Below are positions 1,352 through 10,495 of a DNA stretch of 10,495 nucleotides, piece by piece. Source of the stretch: Candidatus Wolfebacteria bacterium RIFCSPLOWO2_01_FULL_38_11 (GTDB lineage: Bacteria; Patescibacteriota; Minisyncoccia; UBA6257; UBA9933). The notes under the pieces were generated by a model. It was given only the letters and a program-made list of their open reading frames with translations, did not search any database and was not told the DNA's origin. Every line of letters begins with the position of its first letter. Position 1 is the stretch's first letter. Location: NCBI GenBank assembly GCA_001793825.1, contig MGIQ01000004.1, positions 1-10,495 of the forward strand, given 5' to 3'. Position numbers and translations under genes: made by a program.

Positions 1352-1720
1352 ATGGTGAATTTAATTGGAAGATTAATTTTTCTTTTTATTTCCAATGTTT
1401 TGGCGCTTTGGCTGGTAAATCATTTTGTAGCGGGGTTTGAAATTTCTTCAAATTACATCAAATTCGCCACAGTGGCGGGGATTTTTACGGCAATTAACAT
1501 ATTTATCAAACCGGTTTTGAAGCTGATTTTAAGCCCTTTTATTATTATAACTTTGGGATTGGGAATAATCTTGATTAACGCGGCAATTCTTTATTTTTTA
1601 GACAGCTACTCGGCGGATATTTCCATTACTGGACTAAATTCCCTATTCTATGCTACTATCATTATCGGAGCGGTTAATTTTGTAACCAGCTTTATTTTTA
1701 AAAGATTACACAAAGATTAA
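1352..1720 (+). CDS. DUF360 / phage holin family 4-like (Phage_holin_4_2, YvlD-like) small membrane protein
   Basis: The 122-aa protein has 4 predicted TM segments. The pattern GF-x-I...AINIFIKPVLKLILSPFIIITLGLGIILINAAILYFL matches the conserved PxL...P..I.TLGLf.LviNa core of the PF04020 family, recalled from memory. Confidence 0.6.
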   Translation: MVNLIGRLIFLFISNVLALWLVNHFVAGFEISSNYIKFATVAGIFTAINIFIKPVLKLILSPFIIITLGLGIILINAAILYFLDSYSADISITGLNSLFYATIIIGAVNFVTSFIFKRLHKD

Positions 1721-1745
1721 TTTGGATTAATTTGGGATTAATTTC
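1704..1745 (+). repeat. four GATTA cores at 10-11 bp phasing, last three as full GATTAATTTG(G) tandem direct repeats
   Basis: GATTA starts at 1704, 1715, 1725 and 1736. Full units: GATTAATTTG (1715-1724), GATTAATTTGG (1725-1735), GATTAATTTC (1736-1745). The array spans the stop codon of the upstream gene and ends 2 nt before the secG ATG. Confidence 0.7.
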
Positions 1746-1747
1746 AT

Positions 1748-1963
1748 ATGTATATTTCAATCGCGCAAGTTGTTGTTTCCGTCATTTTAATAGCTTTGAT
1801 TTTGCTTCAAGAAAGGTCTTCTGGGCTTTCCGGTGTTTTTGGCGGTTCAGAGAGCGGCTTTTATCAGACCAGAAGAGGCTTGGAAAAGGTGATTTTTGGA
1901 GCAACTATTGTTTTAATTATAGTCCTTGTCGGGCTTTCTTTAGTAAATCTTCTCTGGAAATAG
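1748..1963 (+). CDS. secG: preprotein translocase subunit SecG
   Basis: The 71-aa protein has two TM helices flanking the hallmark LLQ-x3-SGLSG-x-FGG-x-E motif (LILLQERSSGLSGVFGGSESGF...RRGLEKV). This is very close to Bacillus SecG (LLQSSKSAGLSG..GGAEQLFG...RGL). The overlapping 87-aa ORF at 1732-1995 in another frame is spurious. Confidence 0.85.
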   Translation: MYISIAQVVVSVILIALILLQERSSGLSGVFGGSESGFYQTRRGLEKVIFGATIVLIIVLVGLSLVNLLWK

Positions 1964-1994
1964 CTTTATTAGCTTTAATCCTGCTTTATTATTG

Positions 1995-3665
1995 ATGATA
2001 TTATTTGGTTTCTTTAGACAATTATTTAAATCTTTTTCTTCTAAGGAGTGGGCGTTCTTAGGAGTTTCTTTGGTTATTTTTTTAACAGCTTTTTCTTTAT
2101 TGGCTGCGAAATTCGTCCGGGAGAATACCCAAATTGTGCCAGTGGCCGGAGGAAATTATATTGAAGGCGTGGTTAGCCAGCCGAGTTTCATCAATCCAAT
2201 ACTGGCGGCTAACGACGCTGACCGGGATTTGACGGAATTAGCTTTTGACGATCTTTCGGAGTTGGCCGAAAGCTATAAAATGGAAGATAACGGGAAAAAG
2301 TGGCGTTATCGCTTAAAAGAGGGAATTTTTTGGCATGACGGCGAGAAAATAACCACTGACGATATAATTTTTACGGTAGAAACAATAAAAAATCCCGATG
2401 TTTACTCCCCTCTTTATTCCAATTGGCAGAGCATTGAAACGTCGAGAGTAAGCGAGCGGGAATTGGAATTTAAGCTGCCGGCGCCTTATGTTTTTTTTGA
2501 GGACACCTTAAAAAATTTAAAGCCGGTTCCAAAGCATATTTTTGGCAATATTCCGGCAACTAACATCAAACTTTCCAATTATAATTTTGAGCCAATCGGC
2601 AGCGGACCTTTTAAATTTAAATCATTTAGCAGGCGAGCGGATGGATATATAAGTTCTTATGTTTTTGAAAAAAATGAAGCATACCAGAAATTTGTTTATT
2701 TGAAGAAAATAAGCTTTAATTTTTATACTAATGAAGTGGAAACAATTAACGCTTTTAATATGGGTGAGGTTGACGGTTTTGGATTAGCAAATCCGGAAAA
2801 TTTGGGGAAAATCGCTTTTTCACACAAGGTATTTCCAATTAGAATGCTGAAGTATTACGCAATTTTCTTAAATCAATTATCACACCCGGCTTTAAAAGAC
2901 AAAAATGTGCGTTTGGCTATGACTATGGCGATTGATAAAATGGAAATTATCGAAAAAGTTTTTAACGGACAGGCAGTTTTGGCCGCGGGTCCCTTGGTAG
3001 AAGGAATGGAAGGATTTGATAAGCAGGTTTATTCAGAAAATGTTTTTTCGGCGGAGAAAGCCAATCAGATACTTGAAAGTATGGGCTGGGAATGGAATAA
3101 TGAGGAAAATGTCAGGGAAGGGCAGATTAATGACGAAATAGTAAAACTGGAATTTAATTTGTCGGTGCCGGAAATTTCATTTTTAATAGAAACCGCGAAT
3201 TTAATTAAAGGACAGCTGGCAAAAATCGGAGTGAAAATTAATTTGTCAATTGCTCCTATTTCGGAAATCAACAATAAGACAATTAAAAATAGGGATTATC
3301 AGATAATTTTGTTTGGAAATATTTTGGGAGACAGCCCTGACTTATTTTCGTTTTGGCATTCTTCGGGAAGTTTCTATCCTGGGCTTAATTTATCGCTTTA
3401 CGGAAGCAAAACAGCAGATAGTTTAATTGAAACAATAAGAAAAGATTTTGACGAACAAAAAAAACAATCAGAACTTTCTTCTTTACAATATTTGATTATC
3501 GGAGATTATCCAGCTATTTTTCTTTATTCGCCTAATTATCTTTATATCGGCAAGAAATCATTTTCCGGGTTTGAAGATTCATTTATTTCTTTTTCGAGCG
3601 AACGGTTGAAAAGTATTGAAAATTGGTATACAAAAACAGCGAGAAGTTTAAAAAATAGAAACTAA
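1995..3665 (+). CDS. ABC transporter substrate-binding protein, family 5 (SBP_bac_5; Opp/Dpp/Nik-like), N-terminally membrane-anchored
   Basis: The protein is 556 aa from ATG 1995; the track starts at TTG 1992. There is an N-terminal TM anchor (FLGVSLVIFLTAFSLLAA). The family-5 signature region is W-x-DG-x-x-T-x-D-x-x-F (IFWHDGEKITTDDIIFTVET). Size and conservation pattern are typical of cluster-C SBPs. No permease or ATPase genes are adjacent. Confidence 0.7.
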   Translation: MILFGFFRQLFKSFSSKEWAFLGVSLVIFLTAFSLLAAKFVRENTQIVPVAGGNYIEGVVSQPSFINPILAANDADRDLTELAFDDLSELAESYKMEDNGKKWRYRLKEGIFWHDGEKITTDDIIFTVETIKNPDVYSPLYSNWQSIETSRVSERELEFKLPAPYVFFEDTLKNLKPVPKHIFGNIPATNIKLSNYNFEPIGSGPFKFKSFSRRADGYISSYVFEKNEAYQKFVYLKKISFNFYTNEVETINAFNMGEVDGFGLANPENLGKIAFSHKVFPIRMLKYYAIFLNQLSHPALKDKNVRLAMTMAIDKMEIIEKVFNGQAVLAAGPLVEGMEGFDKQVYSENVFSAEKANQILESMGWEWNNEENVREGQINDEIVKLEFNLSVPEISFLIETANLIKGQLAKIGVKINLSIAPISEINNKTIKNRDYQIILFGNILGDSPDLFSFWHSSGSFYPGLNLSLYGSKTADSLIETIRKDFDEQKKQSELSSLQYLIIGDYPAIFLYSPNYLYIGKKSFSGFEDSFISFSSERLKSIENWYTKTARSLKNRN

Positions 3666-3727
3666 CGAATAAGGATTAGCGAAGAGCAAATAGTTCTTTC
3701 ACTAAAAAATATGCCCCCGTGGCGGAA

Positions 3728-3757
3728 CCCCGTATAACAGCAAAGCTGTATACGGGG
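3728..3757 (+). promoter_or_regulatory. stable RNA hairpin (13-bp stem, 1-nt bulge, AAA loop) between SBP gene and tRNA-Leu; no T-tract
   Basis: CCCCGTATAaCAGC-AAA-GCTGTATACGGGG. Four G-C pairs close each end. It lies 31 nt upstream of the tRNA 5' end. It is not a canonical intrinsic terminator because CAAGTTGGCAG follows. It may be a 3'-end stabiliser or processing determinant. Confidence 0.5.
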
Positions 3758-3788
3758 CAAGTTGGCAGATTTATCCTGTACAGCTGGT

Positions 3789-3874
3789 GGGCGGGTGGTG
3801 AAATGGCAAACACGTAGGCTTCAGGAGCCTATGGCCGAAAGGCTTTGAGGGTTCAAGTCCCTCCTCGCCCACCA
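3789..3874 (+). tRNA. tRNA-Leu (anticodon CAG), type II with long variable arm, CCA encoded
   Basis: The tRNA is 86 nt. The acceptor stem GGGCGGG pairs with CTCGCCC, including one G-U pair. It has U8, a 3-bp D-stem (GTG/CAC) with a long D-loop typical of bacterial tRNA-Leu, and an anticodon stem TAGGC/GCCTA. The anticodon loop is TTCAGGA, giving anticodon CAG with U33 and G37. The variable arm is 15 nt (TGGCCGAAAGGCTTT). The T-arm is GAGGG-TTCAAGT-CCCTC, the discriminator is A, and the 3' end is CCA. Confidence 0.9.
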
Positions 3875-5727: not shown

Positions 5728-7095
5728 TTAAAAAAGTTTAGCTTGGGTTTCTGGTTCTTTGCCTGATTTTTTAGGCGATTTTTTCTTTATTTCTTTTGTT
5801 TTTCCGAAAATGCTTATTTTTCCGTATTCGCCGTCAAAGCCCGGTTCGATTTTTACTTTTCCTCCTCTTACCAACTTAATGGCTTCGGCAATTTTAGGGT
5901 GAGCGGATTTTTCAAGGTCGCTGATTTCTGTTTCCAAAAGAATTTTTAATTCACTGCCAAAAGTTTTAATGAGATTTTCGTATTCGGCTTTAGCTTTTTT
6001 GGAAATGGCGGAAGTCTCCAAAGCTTCACTAATGATTCCGTCTAAAGTAATAAGATTATAATAAGGAACAAAATTATTGAAAGAGCGATAGTTGCCGTTT
6101 TTTTCGATTTTTATTTGGCGGTCAGCGAGCTGGTCTACGCGATTTACAACGCCGATGGTAAGCGGCCGGCCGCATTTGGGGCAAATATTTTTGTGTTTTT
6201 TAGAATCTTGGGGAGAAAAAACAACACCGCAATTTCTATGGCCGTCAAAATGATATTTGCCTTCTTCGGGGAAAAATTCAATAGTGGCAACAAAGTTAGG
6301 TTCTATGTTTTGGGTTTTATGTTTTAGGTTTTTTCTAAAATTAGGGATACCGCTTTTTATTGCGTCAAATATCCCCTGATAAGACAATTTTGTGTCAAAT
6401 ATATTGGCCTCTCGACCGATTTTTGGCAAAGAATGGGAATCAGAATTGGAAATCAAAGCAAGATTGTCTAATTTTGACAGGCGCCAGTTCATCTCCGGGT
6501 CGCTGGAAAGTCCAGTCTCTATGGCAAAAATATTTTTTGAATATTTGCCAAAACATTCTTCAATAGAATCAAAGCCGGACATTGAGCCGAAAATGGCAAA
6601 CCAAGGAGTCCAGGCATGAGCGGGAATGATAACCGCCTCGGGATTGATGTTAAAGACAATTTCCGCAAGTTTTTCCGCGTCCAAACCTAAAATTGGACGG
6701 CCGTCGGATTTTAAATTTCCAACAAGAGAAAGGTGAGTGTTGATGGCTTCGGCTGTTTTAAAATCCGGCGCGAAAACCAAATTATGAATGCGGCGGACGC
6801 GGCCGGCTTTGGAATAAATACCGGAAATTTCCACGCTTAACAAAAATCTAGTATCAGCAAAAGTTCCTTTAAGGGTTTTTTTCTTAAATTCTTTTTTTAA
6901 TTGGAAAAGGCCGGGTTCGGCCGGCTCTAATTTTTCTTTTATTTCTTGGAAATAAAGAGGGTGGGTGAAATCCCCTGTTCCCATAACTTGAATACCTTTA
7001 TCGTCAGCCCAGTGGTCTAAGTCAGCAATGTTCATATCAGGGCTGGTGGCGCGGGAATAATGGGAATGAATATGGAGGTCGGAGATGAATCTCAT
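5728..7095 (-). CDS. PHP-domain nuclease, endonuclease Q-like (TIGR00375-type family) with CxxC zinc knuckle
   Basis: The protein is 455 aa from ATG at 7095 (CAT at 7093-7095 on + strand). It begins MRFISDLHIHSHYSRA, the PHP motif I (HxH). Later PHP His/Asp motifs are present: IIPAHAWTPWF and SNSDSHS. It has a zinc knuckle, H-x2-NC...CPKCG, and a Lys-rich low-complexity C-terminal tail. The track ORF started at 7188, but codons 1-31 of that are antisense of tRNA-Leu, so the start was trimmed. The endonuclease Q family assignment is from memory of its N-terminal DLHIHS..YSRA motif plus Zn finger. Confidence 0.6.
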   Translation of the reverse strand: MRFISDLHIHSHYSRATSPDMNIADLDHWADDKGIQVMGTGDFTHPLYFQEIKEKLEPAEPGLFQLKKEFKKKTLKGTFADTRFLLSVEISGIYSKAGRVRRIHNLVFAPDFKTAEAINTHLSLVGNLKSDGRPILGLDAEKLAEIVFNINPEAVIIPAHAWTPWFAIFGSMSGFDSIEECFGKYSKNIFAIETGLSSDPEMNWRLSKLDNLALISNSDSHSLPKIGREANIFDTKLSYQGIFDAIKSGIPNFRKNLKHKTQNIEPNFVATIEFFPEEGKYHFDGHRNCGVVFSPQDSKKHKNICPKCGRPLTIGVVNRVDQLADRQIKIEKNGNYRSFNNFVPYYNLITLDGIISEALETSAISKKAKAEYENLIKTFGSELKILLETEISDLEKSAHPKIAEAIKLVRGGKVKIEPGFDGEYGKISIFGKTKEIKKKSPKKSGKEPETQAKLF

Positions 7096-7109
7096 AAATT
7101 TATTTTTAA

Positions 7110-7194
7110 TGGTGCCGAGGGTGGGATTTGAACCCACATGCCTTGCGGCGCTAGCTCCTAAAGCTAGTGCGTCTGCCAATTTCGCCACCTCGGC
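7110..7194 (-). tRNA. tRNA-Leu (anticodon UAG), type II, CCA encoded
   Basis: On the minus strand the tRNA is 85 nt. The acceptor is GCCGAGG/CCTCGGC. It has U8 and G9, a 3-bp D-stem (GCG/CGC) with an 11-nt D-loop, and an anticodon stem CTAGC/GCTAG. The anticodon loop is TTTAGGA, giving anticodon TAG that reads CUA. The variable arm is 13 nt. The T-arm is GTGGG-TTCAAAT-CCCAC, the discriminator is A, and it ends in CCA. The overall sequence closely resembles bacterial tRNA-Leu (GCCGAAGTGGCGAAAT...). Confidence 0.9.
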
Positions 7195-7357: not shown

Positions 7358-8575
7358 ATGAGTGTAGAAAGGATGACAAAGTGGATTTTTTTAAGCGTTG
7401 CAGTAATTCTCAATTTTTTTCTTATCATTGTTGAATATGTCTGGCTTTCAAAATATTCAATAATGATTGGCGAGTGGGAATGTAATTTGGGTTGGGCTAC
7501 TTTTTTTGCTCAGCTTCTTTATAATATTCTTAGTTTTCGAATAGTCGGACCAACAGAGCTTGGAGCATTGCTTTTCTTTGGTAGGCCCATACGCGATGTG
7601 GATTCTGGGTTGAGATTTGTTCCGTTTCTTGTATGCCGGTTGGCAAGGAATACAAAAAATGCTATTGAGATTGAACTTCCGGCCCGGCCTGAACTAATAT
7701 ACAGGGCTGAGCGAGGGAAAGAAGAGGTTGTACCGGAAAATCTTCTAAAGCTCGGATTCAGGCCTCCAATCAGAGTTCAATTTGGGTGGCCAGGAATTAA
7801 ACTAGAGACAGAAGATCTCGGGGGTAAAATCAAAGATCCTAAAACAAAAGAAGAGGAACGCGAAAAAGCTATAAAAACTAAAGAACTCTACGACGCCTTG
7901 AATAAACTTATAATAGGCGAAATCTTTGAGGGTGATCCATTAAATGTCCGTATGACTGTGGAAACCCCCCTTGTAGTTCGGCTGAAAATCAGCAGTCTCG
8001 TTAATTTTTTGGAAGTATTCGGCTCGATAGAGAACGCAGAAGACCATATACAAGACATCGCGGTAGCGATGCTTAACCGGGAATTTTCAAAAATCACTCC
8101 CGCAGTAGCGCAACATCATCTCGGAACGTTTAGCAATTTAATAAAAGATGATGTTATCGAAAGAATAAGAAGCGACAAAGGGAGTGATTGTGGCGTAAAT
8201 ATTATGACAGTACTCTTACGCCCCTTTGTTTACAGCCACGAGTTTAATGCGGCTATTCAAGAGCCAGCCGAAGAGCGAGCGAAAAAACAGGCAACTGTTA
8301 CTGCCGCTGAAGCCCAGAAGCGAAAAGATATCCTTGAAGGAGAGGGTCAAGGAGCAAAAGAAAAAGCCATAATTGATGGCCGAACAAAAGGCCTTACGAA
8401 TATGGCAAAAGAACTTGGTGTTTTGCCCTTAGCTGTATTGAGCGCAGAAACAGCGCGAGCAATTACGGCAAATCCAGGCCAAAAGACAATTATTGCCGGC
8501 ACAGCTGGTTTTAACGATCTGATGGCTGTGGGTGCTGCCCTTGGAGAAGTCTTTAGAAAGGAGGATAAAAAATGA
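7358..8575 (+). CDS. SPFH / band-7 domain protein (stomatin/HflC-like), membrane-anchored, with atypical ~85-aa charged insertion
   Basis: The 405-aa protein has an N-terminal TM helix (IFLSVAVILNFFLIIVEYVW). The SPFH beta-start is GALLFFGRPIRDVDSGLRFVPFLVCRLAR, corresponding to GPGLHF.IPFID.V. The SPFH core is VRMTVETPLVVRL...AVAMLNREF...GVNIMTVLLRPFVYSHEFNAAI. The typical C-terminal coiled-coil is AEAQKRKDILEGEGQGAKEKAI. The SD is AGGAGG. GC content (~45-53%) is clearly above the window background (~37%). Confidence 0.75.
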   Translation: MSVERMTKWIFLSVAVILNFFLIIVEYVWLSKYSIMIGEWECNLGWATFFAQLLYNILSFRIVGPTELGALLFFGRPIRDVDSGLRFVPFLVCRLARNTKNAIEIELPARPELIYRAERGKEEVVPENLLKLGFRPPIRVQFGWPGIKLETEDLGGKIKDPKTKEEEREKAIKTKELYDALNKLIIGEIFEGDPLNVRMTVETPLVVRLKISSLVNFLEVFGSIENAEDHIQDIAVAMLNREFSKITPAVAQHHLGTFSNLIKDDVIERIRSDKGSDCGVNIMTVLLRPFVYSHEFNAAIQEPAEERAKKQATVTAAEAQKRKDILEGEGQGAKEKAIIDGRTKGLTNMAKELGVLPLAVLSAETARAITANPGQKTIIAGTAGFNDLMAVGAALGEVFRKEDKK

Positions 8576-9123
8576 AGTTCCCACTGGTTGTATTTTTCTT
8601 GATTCTGGCAATAGTCATTTTTATGAAATGGCGTCAGAGTCAGGATCAGTTAGCGTCAGTGATAAAGGGAAAAGAACCAGGTAAAGGCGGACAGAAAAAA
8701 CCGGCGCGGAAAATCCCAAAAATCGGTTACGCGATTTTATTCATTATTCTTGTTTCCGTGATTTCGATTTTTTATAAATCGGAAATAAGAGAGTGGATAG
8801 AATCCAGGCCAGCGAAAACTGTTCTTGCGGCGCAGATAGTTTATCCCGCGTGTTATGACGCGCAAGATATAATGGCCAGGGGAGCAAGTGAGATAATTGC
8901 GAGACCGAATTGCTGGTCTGGCAATATCTCCATTCCGCCGCAGAGCTGGTTTCGAATCGTGCCTTCTGGGAAAGTGACGATTCGGACTTGGGCTGGCAGA
9001 GTGATTCGCGACGGCCCCGGGCAAGCCAACTGGCTGGGAGACGATATCCGAGACGGCAATTTCCGGATAATCTCGGACGAAAGCCAACCGGTTAAAGTCG
9101 CAATCCTTTCTCGGCCAAAATGA
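8572..9123 (+). CDS. uncharacterised 2-TM membrane protein with Lys-rich cytoplasmic loop and Cys-containing extracytoplasmic C-terminal domain; SPFH operon partner (NfeD-like role hypothesised)
   Basis: The 183-aa protein starts at an ATG overlapping the upstream stop (ATGA at 8572-8575), so the two genes are translationally coupled. The SD is AGGAGGAT, 6 nt upstream. TM1 is residues 4-18, followed by a K/R-rich loop (KGKEPGKGGQKKPARKIPK). TM2 is ~51-68. The ~115-aa C-terminal domain has 2 Cys (YPACYDAQ...RPNCWSG) and is Arg/Gly/Asp-rich (GRVIRDGPGQANWLGDDIRDGNFRII). GC content is ~52-55%. No family was recognised. Confidence 0.7.
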   Translation: MKFPLVVFFLILAIVIFMKWRQSQDQLASVIKGKEPGKGGQKKPARKIPKIGYAILFIILVSVISIFYKSEIREWIESRPAKTVLAAQIVYPACYDAQDIMARGASEIIARPNCWSGNISIPPQSWFRIVPSGKVTIRTWAGRVIRDGPGQANWLGDDIRDGNFRIISDESQPVKVAILSRPK

Positions 9124-9160: not shown

Positions 9161-9194
9161 AAAACCCCGCTTGAGTTAAGAGCGGGGTTTTTTA
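9161..9194. terminator. bidirectional rho-independent terminator
   Basis: AAAA-CCCCGCT-tgagttaag-AGCGGGG-TTTTTT. The 7-bp GC-rich stem has a T-tract on the + strand and an A-tract that reads as a U-tract for the - strand. It lies between convergent genes ending at 9123 (+) and 9216 (-). Confidence 0.8.
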
Positions 9195-9215: not shown

Positions 9216-9602
9216 TTATTGTCCAGTTGAAACGAATGATTTAACAATTAGATTTATGCTAACTGCCAATAAAGCAACGACGATTGCAACAACAGCGTAA
9301 ATAATTTGATTTTTAGCTGAACCAACTTTTTCCGGATCACCGCCTGATGTCAAATAAGTGAAAGCGGCGAATAAAATCATTATGCCGGCAATAATGAAAA
9401 AGATGGTATATATCCATTGGAAGGCATAAATTATCAATCCAACAACTCCGCCTATGTTTTCTGACGGAAGAATTTGATTAATGCCAAGATCGCCTGACCC
9501 CGGGATTTCTCCCTTAGTGATGGCAAAAGCGGTATTTGTTATAAGGCCAGACATTATAATCATTAATGATAGGCCGATAATTATTAATAAATTAAATTTC
9601 AT
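9216..9602 (-). CDS. small secreted 2-TM protein, paralog 3 of tandem pilin-like family (VirB2/TrbC-type topology)
   Basis: The 128-aa protein has an N-terminal signal peptide with an AxA site (TNTAFA|ITKG). The mature protein has a short variable N-terminus (GEIPGSGDLGINQILPSEN), then TM1 (LIIYAFQWIYTIFFIIAGIMILFAAFTYL), a conserved loop TSGGDPEKVGSAKNQ, and TM2 (IIYAVVAIVVALLAVSINLIV). It is ~65% identical to paralog 2 over the TM core. Confidence 0.75.
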   Translation of the reverse strand: MKFNLLIIIGLSLMIIMSGLITNTAFAITKGEIPGSGDLGINQILPSENIGGVVGLIIYAFQWIYTIFFIIAGIMILFAAFTYLTSGGDPEKVGSAKNQIIYAVVAIVVALLAVSINLIVKSFVSTGQ

Positions 9603-9665
9603 GATTATTTTGTTTTAATTTACGACCTTTTTGTTTATTATATTTAATTTTAGCAAAAAATAAAA

Positions 9666-10025
9666 TTAATTTCCTGTGGATATAAAATTAGAAATAATGG
9701 CGGTAAAACTGACGGATAAAAGAGCAATAATAATGGCAATGACGGCATATAAAATTTGCTTGTTGGCAGTTTTAATTTTTTCAGCATCGCCTTGGGCGGT
9801 AAGATATGCGAAAGCGGCGAGAATTATAAAAATGGCGGCAACAATAAAGAAAATCGTATACATCCATTTAACGACATTTACCAGTATTCTAATTATATCA
9901 TTAACGCTTTTTACCGGCGTATCAACATCTGCCGCAAAAACATTCAACGGAACTAAAAAGGAAATTAGGAAATTGACGGAAATTAAGAGACCTATCGAAG
10001 TCAGCAAGAATTTATTTGATTTCAT
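9666..10025 (-). CDS. small secreted 2-TM protein, paralog 2 of tandem pilin-like family
   Basis: The 119-aa protein has a signal peptide with cleavage site NVFA|ADVD. It shares the core WMYTIFFIVAAIFIILAAFAYLTAQGDAEKIKTANKQILYAVIAIIIALLSVS with paralogs 1 and 3. It lies 9 nt downstream of paralog 1's stop with no SD, suggesting coupled translation. The 120-aa + strand ORF at 9676-10038 is its antisense shadow. Confidence 0.75.
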   Translation of the reverse strand: MKSNKFLLTSIGLLISVNFLISFLVPLNVFAADVDTPVKSVNDIIRILVNVVKWMYTIFFIVAAIFIILAAFAYLTAQGDAEKIKTANKQILYAVIAIIIALLSVSFTAIISNFISTGN

Positions 10026-10034
10026 AAATTTTCA

Positions 10035-10415
10035 TTAAATTTTGCCGGATAAATTAGCGCCTAAAATTTCTCCGACAATATAAATAATGCCGTAACTGCA
10101 AATAATTATAGCATATCCGATAACCGCCCATTTAATAGTATTTTGGCCACTTTTGACTTTTTCCGGGTTGTCGCCAGCGGTTAAAATTTGAAAAGCTCCG
10201 TAAATGACCATAATTACGAGAATCGGAGCGCCGATTTTAATAAGATAGCCAATAATACCCTTGAGAAGATCGGTAAAGCTGTCGTATTTAAGAGGATTTG
10301 CAAAGCCGCCGGTTCCACCGCCTATATCAGCAAGCGAAAAACTCGTGGAAATAATAAACAAGAGCGGAATAAACAGAAAGAGAAGAGCAAATTTATTTTT
10401 TAATAATTTAATCAT
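10035..10415 (-). CDS. small secreted 2-TM protein, paralog 1 (most divergent) of tandem pilin-like family
   Basis: The 126-aa protein has a signal peptide with cleavage site SFSLA|DIGGG and a Gly-rich mature N-terminus (DIGGGTGGFANPLKYDSF). Its core IYGAFQILTAGDNPEKVKSGQNTIKWAVIGYAII retains the A-F-x-x-L-T-x-G-D-x-E-K-V...Q/K-x-I loop signature of the family. Confidence 0.7.
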   Translation of the reverse strand: MIKLLKNKFALLFLFIPLLFIISTSFSLADIGGGTGGFANPLKYDSFTDLLKGIIGYLIKIGAPILVIMVIYGAFQILTAGDNPEKVKSGQNTIKWAVIGYAIIICSYGIIYIVGEILGANLSGKI

Positions 10416-10495
10416 TTTAACTGCAATTAATCACAGAGGCGGGATTCCACCATTGGATGGAACTTTTACTTAGCAATTGTATAAGTATATCAACG

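What the first reader, a model, noticed from the sequence alone, without database searches (positions are those of the whole stretch)
9216..10415. Tandem array of three paralogous signal-peptide + 2-TM genes, a pilin-like (VirB2/TrbC topology) subunit family with diversified exposed N-termini
Three consecutive minus-strand genes of 126, 119 and 128 aa share a conserved two-helix core. The core is W-x-YTIFFI-x-A-x-I-x-I-x-AAF-x-YLT-x-x-GD-x-EK-x-x-x-A/G-x-x-Q-I-x-YAV-x-AI-x-x-ALL-x-VS, and the inter-helix loop GD(P/A)EK is invariant. Each has a cleavable AxA signal peptide followed by a short mature N-terminal segment that is completely different among paralogs (GEIPGSGDLGINQ… / DVDTPVKSVNDI… / DIGGGTGGFANPLKYD…). 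Signal peptide, a short variable tip and two TM helices with a small basic loop is the architecture of VirB2/TrbC-type conjugative or type-IV-secretion pilins. The tandem paralogy with tip diversification looks like subunit or antigenic variation. Genes 1 and 2 are separated by only 9 nt, so they are co-translated. The cluster continues beyond the window end, so secretion-apparatus genes may lie immediately upstream (>10495). For a small-genome, potentially episymbiotic organism, a multi-pilin surface or secretion apparatus would be a key host-interaction system.
Basis: partly seen in the sequence, partly recalled or inferred. Interest (0 to 1): 0.75.

Follow-up and report, generated by a model that had tools for sequence, protein, structure and literature searches.

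The report
VirB2-like pilin gene array, Wolfebacteria
These are four (not three) tandem genes for small VirB2-like "type IV secretion pilin" membrane proteins in an ultra-small groundwater bacterium; such arrays are already described in this bacterial group, here coupled to a solute-binding-protein gene rather than to the secretion machine.

Summary
The three minus-strand genes are real and are significant paralogues. A fourth paralogue starts just beyond the window, and its last 25 codons lie at 10417-10494. All four score above the Pfam gathering cut-off for PF18895 (T4SS_pilin). Each has a Sec-type signal peptide followed by a confidently modelled two-helix hairpin.

[quoted passage not shown] Arrays of 2-11 divergent VirB2-like pilins in Patescibacteria are published (Wang 2023; Quinonero-Coronel 2025). 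That survey includes this assembly and scores it VirB4-positive.

Two sub-claims fail:
- No secretion ATPase lies upstream. The order is gyrA, a membrane-anchored SBP_bac_1 protein, then the pilins. No T4SS gene was found within about 10 kb of the array in any related genome locus examined.
- The paralogues are old, ordered orthogroups (Cys-tip g0, then g1, then a variable number of g2/g3 type), not a fast-varying cassette set.

The one possibly new point is a near-universal, often translationally coupled pairing of the SBP gene with the Cys-tip pilin gene.

Verdict: a new member of a known kind, of modest interest.

The parts
10417..10494 (-). 3' end (last 25 codons plus the TAA stop at 10419..10417) of g0, a fourth pilin paralogue of 132 aa with a Cys-rich tip. 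The rest of g0 lies beyond the window.
   Evidence: The translation VDILIQLLSKSSIQWWNPASVINCS* matches the end of L001:9601-9999. g0 scores 27.8 bits for PF18895 against a cut-off of 26.6. In L001 its start overlaps the stop of the upstream SBP_bac_1 gene by 4 nt.
10035..10415 (-). g1, a pilin paralogue of 126 aa (GenBank OGM91798.1). It has a signal peptide (predicted cleavage SLA|D29), a Gly-rich tip with an NPL motif, and a two-helix hairpin with the loop GDNPEK.
   Evidence: ORF. PF18895 43.0 bits; PF04956 24.4 bits, E 3.4e-5. AF2 helices 47-78 and 84-117 with pLDDT above 90. Signal-peptide and transmembrane rules. It forms a distinct orthogroup in 18 species.
9666..10025 (-). g2, a pilin paralogue of 119 aa (OGM91797.1). 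It has a signal peptide (VFA|A31), the core WMYTIFFI...AYLT and the loop GDAEK. It starts 9 nt after the g1 stop.
   Evidence: ORF. PF18895 30.4 bits; PF04956 20.5 bits. 47% identical to g3, E 2e-29. It belongs to the g2/g3-type orthogroup, whose copy number varies from 1 to 5 among species.
9216..9602 (-). g3, a pilin paralogue of 128 aa (OGM91796.1; called as 115 aa from an internal Met in some databases). It has a signal peptide (AFA|I27), the core WIYTIFFI...TYLT and the loop GDPEK.
   Evidence: ORF. PF18895 40.0 bits. An exact 128-aa match exists in GenBank. Signal-peptide and transmembrane rules.
9161..9191 (.). G+C-rich hairpin (12-bp stem with 6 G-C pairs) flanked by A and T runs. It is a likely bidirectional intrinsic terminator that closes the pilin operon and the convergent 183-aa/SPFH operon.
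   Evidence: The terminator scan on L001 places it at 11225-11255, which equals window 9161-9191. The sequence was read. Three such sites were found against 3.8 expected, so the scan itself is not significant. The call rests on the strength of the stem and its position.

Best explanation
The locus is the distal part of a chromosomal operon in Candidatus Wolfebacteria. The gene order is (gyrA)-SBP_bac_1-g0-g1-g2-g3. It encodes four divergent VirB2-like pilins of the Patescibacteria type IV secretion system (Pfam PF18895).

**Proposed mechanism**
1. Each precursor is exported by Sec and cut by signal peptidase I. This leaves a mature protein of about 90-105 aa.
2. The mature protein sits in the cytoplasmic membrane as a two-helix hairpin. 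The variable N-terminal tip and the C-terminus face outward, and the short charged loop (GDxEK) faces the cytoplasm.
3. A VirB4-type T4SS encoded elsewhere in the genome extracts the subunits from this membrane pool. It assembles them into the channel or pilus that these monoderm epibionts are thought to use at the host interface.
4. The paralogues are not interchangeable variants. g0 (disulfide-capable Cys tip, always next to the SBP gene) and g1 (Gly-rich tip) are ancient specialised subunits. The g2/g3 type is the copy-number-variable subunit, possibly the major or host-facing one.

**Shown here**
- Family membership, topology and hairpin fold.
- Conserved array order.
- Coupling of the SBP gene to the first pilin gene.
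- Absence of T4SS genes nearby.

**From the literature**
- virB4 is present in this assembly.
- An in-cluster pilin array is essential in a saccharibacterium.

**Inferred**
- Export and cleavage.
- Assembly by the T4SS.
- The division of labour among paralogues.
For: - **Family.** PF18895 scores above the gathering cut-off for all four genes. PF04956 TrbC/VirB2 matches g1 and g2 at E 3.4e-5 and 5.6e-4 over about 90% of the model. NF045849, a Mycoplasma ICE pilin-like conjugal transfer protein, matches at 28-31 bits, E about 1e-6, below its cut-off of 40.
- **Fold.** The AF2 hairpin has pLDDT above 90, in both the full-length and the mature-only model.
- **Topology.** Signal peptide plus two transmembrane helices by rule-based analysis.
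- **Homologues.** All homologues returned carry PF18895 except two short or partial hits. One is named 'pilin' by NCBI, in Paceibacterota.
- **Organism.** The proteins are identical to Wolfebacteria RIFCSPLOWO2_01_FULL_38_11. Table S1 of PMC12102498 scores that assembly VirB4 = Yes, as it does every other Wolfebacteria row seen.
- **Published precedent.** 441 VirB2 arrays of 2-11 genes, mean identity 25% and maximum 54%; here the paralogues are 24-38% identical. Six PF18895 pilins are essential in S. epibionticum.
- **Conserved organisation.** The order g0-g1-(g2/g3)n holds over 18 species.
Against: - No VirB4, VirD4, VirB6, VirB3 or VirB8 gene lies within about 10 kb of the array in this genome, or in any related genome locus examined. 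Linkage to the machine therefore rests on family membership and on literature presence/absence data.
- The PF04956 scores are below Pfam's curated cut-off. hhalign against Agrobacterium VirB2 itself shows nothing (probability 0.8%).
- No pilus of this type has been visualised in Patescibacteria, as far as the papers read here say.
- In S. epibionticum the one PF18895 gene outside the T4SS cluster (SEML1_0024) was non-essential.
Confidence: 0.68

Rival explanations
1. The hairpin proteins work with the co-encoded membrane-anchored SBP_bac_1 protein as a T4SS-independent envelope module. One possibility is an oligomeric hairpin ring or channel, or a membrane platform, that receives a ligand captured by the SBP. 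It would stand in for the missing ABC permease.
For: - The SBP gene is followed by a pilin gene in 14 of 14 genome loci, with gaps of -11 to +42 nt.
- The same holds in all 73 metagenome loci that have room: 64 within 150 nt, many with a 4-nt overlap, and the other 9 within 173-776 nt.
- The first pilin after the SBP has at least 2 Cys in its tip in 88 of 94 loci. None of the later pilins matches the strict tip motif.
- No ABC permease or ATPase gene and no T4SS gene lies in the neighbourhood.
- When the array is split or inverted, g0 stays with the SBP gene (L010, L017, L021).
Against: - gyrA sits directly upstream of the SBP gene just as consistently (49 of 52 loci). Tight synteny in this clade therefore does not by itself prove shared function.
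- The same Pfam family lies inside the T4SS cluster of Saccharibacteria and is essential there.
- The assembly does encode VirB4.
- No precedent for such a module was found in the searched literature.
Confidence: 0.15
2. The paralogy exists mainly for antigenic or host-range variation. Under this reading the subunits are interchangeable major pilins with diversifying exposed tips, expressed alternately or mixed to evade or match different hosts.
For: - The tip is the least conserved mature segment: 7% identity among the paralogues and 28% among g1 orthologues, against 68-79% for the helices and loop.
- The copy number of the g2/g3 type varies from 1 to 5 between species.
- The published survey proposes host-strain adaptation by analogy with Bartonella and Anaplasma.
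Against: - g0 and g1 are ancient orthogroups in a fixed order, each scoring about twice as high with its orthologue as with any paralogue.
- The g0 tip carries a conserved Cys-rich motif, GLVPCG..C.[FW]C[DH]L in the closest relatives.
- The signal peptide and C-tail are as variable as the tip (21-26% identity), which fits relaxed constraint rather than positive selection.
- There are no DNA repeats or silent cassettes between the paralogues.
- Six sister contigs carrying the locus, from different samples, are 99.9-100% identical across the array. They show no within-population tip variation.
Confidence: 0.12
3. The genes encode unrelated small membrane proteins (a holin, a bacteriocin or immunity protein, or type IV pilus (T4P) pilins), and the Pfam name is misleading.
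For: - A two-helix hydrophobic hairpin is a very common fold. The top structural matches are ATP synthase subunit c and T3SS needle proteins.
- A Phage_holin_4_2 gene exists elsewhere in the window.
Against: - No holin, bacteriocin or immunity family hit appears in Pfam, NCBIfam or PHROGs. The only PHROG hit is of unknown function, E 0.006.
- There is no match in phage or plasmid collections.
- There is no class III (G|FxxxE) prepilin motif, read directly from the sequences.
- The hits that are significant all point to conjugative or T4SS pilin families.
Confidence: 0.04

Closest known systems
VirB2-like pilin arrays of Patescibacteria (S. epibionticum SEML1_0014-0019, Wang et al. 2023, PMC10633639; 441 arrays surveyed by Quinonero-Coronel et al. 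2025, PMC12102498)
   Same: - Same Pfam family (PF18895, with or without PF04956) and same phylum-level group.
- Tandem genes of about 110-165 aa with a signal peptide and a two-helix hairpin.
- Very low identity between paralogues: 24-38% here, against a published mean of 25% and maximum of 54%.
- The genome encodes a VirB4.
   Different: - Here the array is not inside or beside the T4SS cluster. It sits in a gyrA-SBP_bac_1-pilin operon among housekeeping genes.
- In S. epibionticum the array lies within the T4SS cluster SEML1_0006-0019.
- The survey found such arrays most abundant in Microgenomatia and Saccharimonadia, whereas this one is in Paceibacteria.
- The SBP coupling and the fixed order g0-g1-g2/3 are not mentioned in the papers read.
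TrbC/VirB2 conjugative pilins of Gram-negative T4SS (Pfam PF04956; e.g. Agrobacterium VirB2)
   Same: - Signal peptide, short mature N-terminus, two hydrophobic helices and a short polar loop.
- Similar size of about 120 aa.
- Statistically significant profile match for g1 and g2 over about 90% of the model.
   Different: - Scores fall below Pfam's gathering cut-off.
- There is no detectable similarity to A. tumefaciens VirB2 by hhalign.
- The host is a monoderm, and the genes are not adjacent to virB3/virB4 as in the Ti plasmid (compare).
- Cyclisation, lipid co-assembly and pilus formation are untested.
Mbov_0395/MMCAP2_0565 pilin-like conjugal transfer proteins of Mycoplasma ICEs (NCBIfam NF045849)
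   Same: Small hairpin proteins of monoderm conjugation systems. g1, g2 and g3 match 70-73 of the model's 80 positions at E about 1e-6 to 1e-7.
   Different: The scores of 28-31 bits are below the equivalog cut-off of 40. g0 does not match. These genes are chromosomal housekeeping-context genes, not part of an ICE.
Tandem VirB2 paralogues of Bartonella and Anaplasma T4SS (as cited in PMC12102498)
   Same: Multiple divergent virB2 copies in tandem, with a proposed role in surface variation or host interaction.
   Different: Those arrays belong to effector-translocating Gram-negative systems in animal pathogens, and their paralogy is read as antigenic variation. Here the paralogues are ancient, ordered orthogroups with no recombination substrate.

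Membership tests
Pfam PF18895 T4SS_pilin | HMM score at or above the curated gathering cut-off (26.6 bits) | tested here: met
   g1 43.0, g2 30.4 and g3 40.0 bits; g0 27.8 bits. Of the 95 homologues returned, 93 carry a precomputed PF18895 hit.
Pfam PF18895 T4SS_pilin | Architecture of an N-terminal signal peptide followed by a two-helix hydrophobic hairpin with a short polar loop | tested here: met
   Hydropathy and (-3,-1) rules. AF2 helices 47-78 and 84-117 with pLDDT above 90. SignalP and DeepTMHMM were not available, so cleavage is predicted by rule only.
TrbC/VirB2 (Pfam PF04956) | HMM score at or above the gathering cut-off (27.9 bits) | tested here: not met
   g1 24.4 bits (E 3.4e-5), g2 20.5 bits (E 5.6e-4) and no hit for g3. 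The matches are significant but sub-threshold. Some orthologues do carry a precomputed PF04956 hit.
TrbC/VirB2 (Pfam PF04956) | Detectable similarity to an archetypal VirB2 (A. tumefaciens C58) | tested here: not met
   hhalign of the 26-sequence profile against VirB2 gave probability 0.8%, with 14 aligned columns. Only a single target sequence was used, so this is a weak test.
TrbC/VirB2 (Pfam PF04956) | Gene lies in a T4SS cluster next to virB3/virB4/virB6 | tested here: not met
   The neighbours are an SBP_bac_1 gene, gyrA, SPFH and other housekeeping genes. No T4SS family appears within about 10 kb here or in about 25 related genome loci. None appears among the large ORFs of the shorter metagenome loci either.
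TrbC/VirB2 (Pfam PF04956) | Polymerises into an extracellular conjugative pilus (with phospholipid); N-terminal processing or cyclisation | not testable with these tools
   This needs cryo-EM or cryo-ET and proteomics. The fold search was uninformative for a simple hairpin.
Patescibacteria VirB2-like pilin array (sensu PMC12102498) | At least 2 PF18895/PF04956 genes in tandem (or separated by one gene) in a Patescibacteria genome that encodes VirB4 | tested here: met
   Four tandem genes. The organism is Wolfebacteria RIFCSPLOWO2_01_FULL_38_11. VirB4 = Yes for GCA_001793825.1 in the paper's Table S1, which is a literature result not recomputed here.
Patescibacteria VirB2-like pilin array (sensu PMC12102498) | High divergence between array members (published mean 25%, maximum 54% identity) | tested here: met
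   Pairwise identity is 24-38% over the aligned length and 47% over the 83-aa core for g2/g3.
Type IV pilus (T4P) pilins | Class III signal peptide with a G|(F/M)xxxE cleavage motif and an N_methyl domain | tested here: not met
   No such motif appears in any of the four sequences, and there is no PF07963 hit.
NCBIfam NF045849 Mbov_0395 pilin-like conjugal transfer protein | Score at or above the equivalog cut-off (40 bits) | tested here: not met
   Scores are 30.7, 27.8 and 28.2 bits, and g0 has no hit. The proteins are related but not members.
   None in Pfam or NCBIfam. PHROGs gave only an unknown-function hit at E 0.006.

The most novel reading that the evidence does not exclude
The membrane-anchored SBP_bac_1 protein and the Cys-tip pilin g0 may form a dedicated, co-translated pair that links ligand capture to the VirB2-like filament or channel. 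In Paceibacteria this part of the T4SS apparatus would then serve uptake or recognition of a host-derived molecule rather than DNA or effector export. The SBP would act as a pilus-associated or channel-associated receptor, filling the place of the missing VirB5 or adhesin.
Probability: 0.15. Interest if true: 0.7.

Novelty: new member of a known kind. Interest (0 to 1): 0.3.

Why it matters
Patescibacteria make up a large part of uncultured bacterial diversity. Their T4SS with VirB2-like pilins is the only T4SS known to be essential for its bearer. What it transports is unknown.

This locus adds a Paceibacteria example in which the pilin genes are separated from the machine. They are organised as conserved specialised subunits: a Cys-tip pilin, a Gly-tip pilin and an expandable type. 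They are also co-transcribed with an orphan solute-binding protein. If that pairing is functional, it gives a concrete and testable handle, a candidate ligand-binding partner, on what the apparatus does at the host interface. If it is not, the locus is simply one more annotated instance of a published gene family whose GenBank entries still read 'hypothetical protein'.

Tried and rejected
- **Sequence search of PDB** with the family profile gave 0 hits.
- **hhalign against A. tumefaciens VirB2** gave no match. RP4 (BN000925) is not in the plasmid collection.
- **tblastn of g1 against plasmids and phages** gave no match, so there is no sign of a mobile-element origin.
- **Apparent strain variation of the upstream gene.** The 111-aa version in L002 turned out to be a scaffold N-run artefact.
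- **Promoter scan of the operon.** Nine sites were found against 10.5 expected, so no usable signal.
- **Search for DNA repeats or cassettes between paralogues.** Only short AT-rich chance matches were found.
- **First SPFH synteny estimate.** The single-sequence search gave 2 of 30 and was too insensitive. The iterative search gives 18 of 30.
- **Is the pilin-adjacent gene SEML1_0023 of S. epibionticum an SBP?** It is an STT3/PglB-like glycosyltransferase, so there is no SBP-pilin pair at that site in that organism.
- **dN/dS of tip versus core.** This was not feasible. Orthologues are at most 64% identical (saturated), and the sister contigs are 99.9-100% identical.
- **First attempt at a collection scan.** The 26-sequence alignment was too diverse. 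It was repeated with 17 sequences.
Full report
**1. What is in the window**

- g1, 10415..10035, 126 aa
- g2, 10025..9666, 119 aa
- g3, 9602..9216, 128 aa

Nine nucleotides separate g1 from g2, and 63 separate g2 from g3. The genes are true paralogues. g2/g3 are 47% identical over 83 aa (E 2e-29). g1/g3 give E 2e-9 and g1/g2 give E 5e-7.

g1 is a more distant member, 25-29% identical to the others, and its loop reads GDNPEK rather than GD(P/A)EK.

All three proteins have a basic n-region, a hydrophobic h-region and a small-residue (-3,-1) site: SLA|D29, VFA|A31 and AFA|I27. Two further hydrophobic helices follow.

A strong hairpin at 9161-9191 lies between g3 and the convergent 183-aa gene and looks like a bidirectional terminator.

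**2. Beyond the window**

The window is 100% identical to two longer ENA scaffolds, L001 and L002. The three proteins are identical to OGM91796.1, OGM91797.1 and OGM91798.1. [quoted passage not shown]

Upstream of g1 there is no secretion ATPase. Instead:
- A fourth paralogue, g0 (132 aa), ends 1 nt before the g1 ATG. Its last 25 codons are window 10494..10420 and its stop codon is 10419..10417.
- The g0 start overlaps by 4 nt the stop of a 422-aa protein. That protein has an N-terminal membrane anchor and an SBP_bac_1 domain (68 bits).
- gyrA comes before the SBP gene.
- Further upstream are Lactamase_B_3, an S1-domain protein and FtsH.
- Downstream are SPFH, RNase J, SecG and similar genes.

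**3. Family assignment**

| Gene | PF18895 T4SS_pilin (cut-off 26.6 bits) | PF04956 TrbC/VirB2 (cut-off 27.9 bits) |
|---|---|---|
| g1 | 43.0 | 24.4 (E 3.4e-5) |
| g2 | 30.4 | 20.5 (E 5.6e-4) |
| g3 | 40.0 | no hit |
| g0 | 27.8 | no hit |

All four genes exceed the PF18895 cut-off. The TrbC/VirB2 matches to g1 and g2 are significant but sub-threshold, and they cover almost the whole model.

NCBIfam gives only sub-threshold hits to the Mycoplasma ICE 'Mbov_0395 pilin-like conjugal transfer protein'. No holin, bacteriocin or phage family matches. Nothing similar lies in the plasmid or phage collections.

AlphaFold2 gives a signal-peptide helix plus a two-helix hairpin (47-78 and 84-117) with pLDDT above 90, and a disordered tip.

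Structure comparison cannot distinguish this hairpin from hundreds of others. A profile comparison with Agrobacterium VirB2 alone finds nothing. The link to canonical VirB2 is therefore a profile-level one.

The family is very large: 72,509 cluster representatives at 50% identity match at E up to 1e-3.

**4. Comparative genomics**

A scan of species-representative genomes found 16 loci. They come from Wolfebacteria, Harrisonbacteria and other Paceibacterota. Every locus carries an array of 2-7 pilin genes.

*Array order.* I assigned each gene to the window paralogue it resembles most. This shows a fixed order over 18 species: g0, then g1, then one to five genes of the g2/g3 type. The g0 and g1 types score about twice as high with their orthologues as with any paralogue. 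The duplications are therefore ancient, and only the g2/g3 type changes in copy number.

*Conservation by segment.*

| Segment | Identity among g1 orthologues |
|---|---|
| Helices and loop | 68-79% |
| N-terminal tip | 28% |
| Signal peptide | 21% |
| C-tail | 26% |

Among the four paralogues of this genome the tip is 7% identical.

*Cys-rich tip of g0.* In the closest relatives the mature N-terminus of g0 reads GLVPCG..C.[FW]C[DH]L. At least 2 Cys occur in the tip of the first pilin after the SBP gene in 88 of 94 loci. None of the later pilins matches the strict tip motif.

*SBP-pilin pairing.*
- The SBP gene is followed directly by a pilin gene in 14 of 14 genome loci, with gaps of -11 to +42 nt.
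- I scanned metagenomes with an SBP alignment, which found more than 534 relatives. All 73 of the 80 kept loci that had room downstream carry a pilin: 64 within 150 nt, often with a 4-nt overlap, and 9 within 173-776 nt.

*Limits of the synteny argument.* gyrA is directly upstream of the SBP gene in 49 of 52 loci. An SPFH gene lies downstream in 18 of 30. The whole neighbourhood is conserved in this clade, so synteny alone does not prove a functional SBP-pilin link.

*No T4SS genes nearby.* In about 25 distinct related genome loci no VirB4, VirD4, VirB6, VirB3 or VirB8 family appears within about 10 kb. The large ORFs of the shorter metagenome loci also show none.

**5. What is already known**

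- Wang et al. 2023 (PMC10633639) found a series of predicted pilins inside the T4SS cluster of Southlakia epibionticum. They annotated six genes, SEML1_0014-0019, as PF18895 and found them essential by Tn-seq. A seventh PF18895 gene outside the cluster, SEML1_0024, was non-essential.
- Quinonero-Coronel et al. 2025 (PMC12102498) searched 3,035 Patescibacteria genomes with PF18895 and PF04956, among other profiles.
  - VirB2-like pilins occurred in 1,948 VirB4-positive assemblies and lay near virB4 in 1,135 of them.
  - There were 441 arrays of 2-11 genes, with mean identity 25% and maximum 54%.
  - The authors suggested adaptation to different host strains.
  - Their Table S1 lists this very assembly with VirB4 = Yes, as it does all ten Wolfebacteria rows I saw.
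- A 2025 review calls these systems unique among monoderms for their potential to make conjugative pili.
- None of these papers, and no paper in the searchable library, mentions a solute-binding protein in this context.

**6. Most likely mechanism**

Shown here: family membership, signal peptide plus hairpin topology, an ordered and conserved array, co-orientation with very short or overlapping intergenic distances from the SBP gene to g2, and a terminator after g3.

From the literature: a VirB4 in the same assembly, and essentiality of in-cluster homologues in a saccharibacterium.

Inferred:
1. The precursors are exported by Sec and cleaved by signal peptidase I.
2. The mature hairpins of about 90-105 aa accumulate in the membrane. 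Tip and C-terminus face outward, and the GDxEK loop faces inward.
3. The T4SS encoded elsewhere extracts and assembles them.
4. The conserved specialisation argues for distinct structural roles rather than interchangeable variants. g0 has a Cys tip and is SBP-coupled, g1 has a Gly-rich tip, and g2/g3 is expandable.

I put this at about 0.68.

**7. Rivals**

- *T4SS-independent SBP-hairpin module (0.15).* It is favoured by the near-universal coupling and the absence of both ABC and T4SS partners nearby. It is weakened by the equally conserved gyrA adjacency and by the family's place inside T4SS clusters elsewhere.
- *Antigenic or host-range variation as the reason for the paralogy (0.12).* This is compatible with a pilin role. 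It fits poorly with ancient ordered orthogroups, the conserved g0 tip, the lack of recombination substrates and the lack of any variation among sister contigs.
- *Holin, bacteriocin or T4P readings (0.04).* These have no support.

**8. Verdict**

That is a good call from raw sequence. But the kind is published, and this genome was part of the published survey. The prediction of adjacent secretion machinery is wrong.

The parts that may be new are the gyrA-SBP-pilin operon, the SBP/Cys-tip-pilin pairing and the fixed subunit order in Paceibacteria. They are worth a note but are so far only comparative-genomic correlations.

- Novelty: new member of a known kind.
- Interest: 0.3.

Noticed in passing
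window 1352-3874: The gene string Phage_holin_4_2 (1352-1720), SecG (1748-1963), SBP_bac_5 (1992-3665) and tRNA-Leu(CAG) (3789-3874) recurs in the distant saccharibacterium S. epibionticum as SEML1_0636-0633. There the holin-family protein, SecG and the peptide SBP are all scored essential by Tn-seq. It also recurs in L111. A 'phage holin' family protein that is conserved next to secG and essential deserves a look.
   Followed up: partly
proteins P0025, P0029, P0148: Many of the best family matches in the 1.8-billion-protein library are single polypeptides with 2-16 tandem pilin hairpin units behind one signal peptide. Examples are P0025 (606 aa, 7 units) and P0148 (1775 aa, 16 units). Of the top 150 hits, 105 are at least 190 aa long. 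These look like fused 'poly-pilins'. Whether they are real proteins or gene-call fusions was not checked.
   Followed up: partly
L001:8336-9604 (just outside the window, upstream of g0): This is an orphan, membrane-anchored SBP_bac_1 protein with no ABC permease or ATPase gene nearby. It forms a large orthogroup (more than 534 metagenome relatives) that is almost always sandwiched between gyrA and a Cys-tip pilin gene.
   Followed up: yes
window 10444-10490 vs L003: A sister contig (L003) is 99.9% identical to the window. Ten of its 12 differences fall in the last 50 nt, the 3' end of g0, right at that contig's end. This is either strain variation in the g0 C-tail or an assembly-end artefact.
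   Followed up: no
window 5728-7194: The 486-aa ORF on the minus strand (PHP_C / MJ0043_C family) overlaps tRNA-Leu(TAG) at 7110-7194 at its 5' end. Gene callers use a shorter 483-aa start. The true start is therefore downstream of the tRNA.
   Followed up: no
window 7358-9123: The SPFH/Band_7 gene (7358-8575) overlaps by 4 nt a 183-aa membrane protein gene (8572-9123) that matches no family. The pair is convergent with the pilin operon. An SPFH gene is kept downstream of the array in 18 of 30 related loci.
   Followed up: partly
L002:3071-3406 and L001:8336-9604: Runs of N in the public scaffolds truncate or interrupt the g0 and SBP gene calls. One result is a false '111-aa' variant. This is a caution for anyone who reads these records.
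   Followed up: yes
L010 and L109 (relatives): In some relatives the pilin array is immediately followed by rnpA-yidC-jag, which are origin-proximal genes, and then by type IV pilus genes (PilB/PilC). This echoes the published observation that Patescibacteria T4SS genes tend to sit near the replication origin.
   Followed up: no
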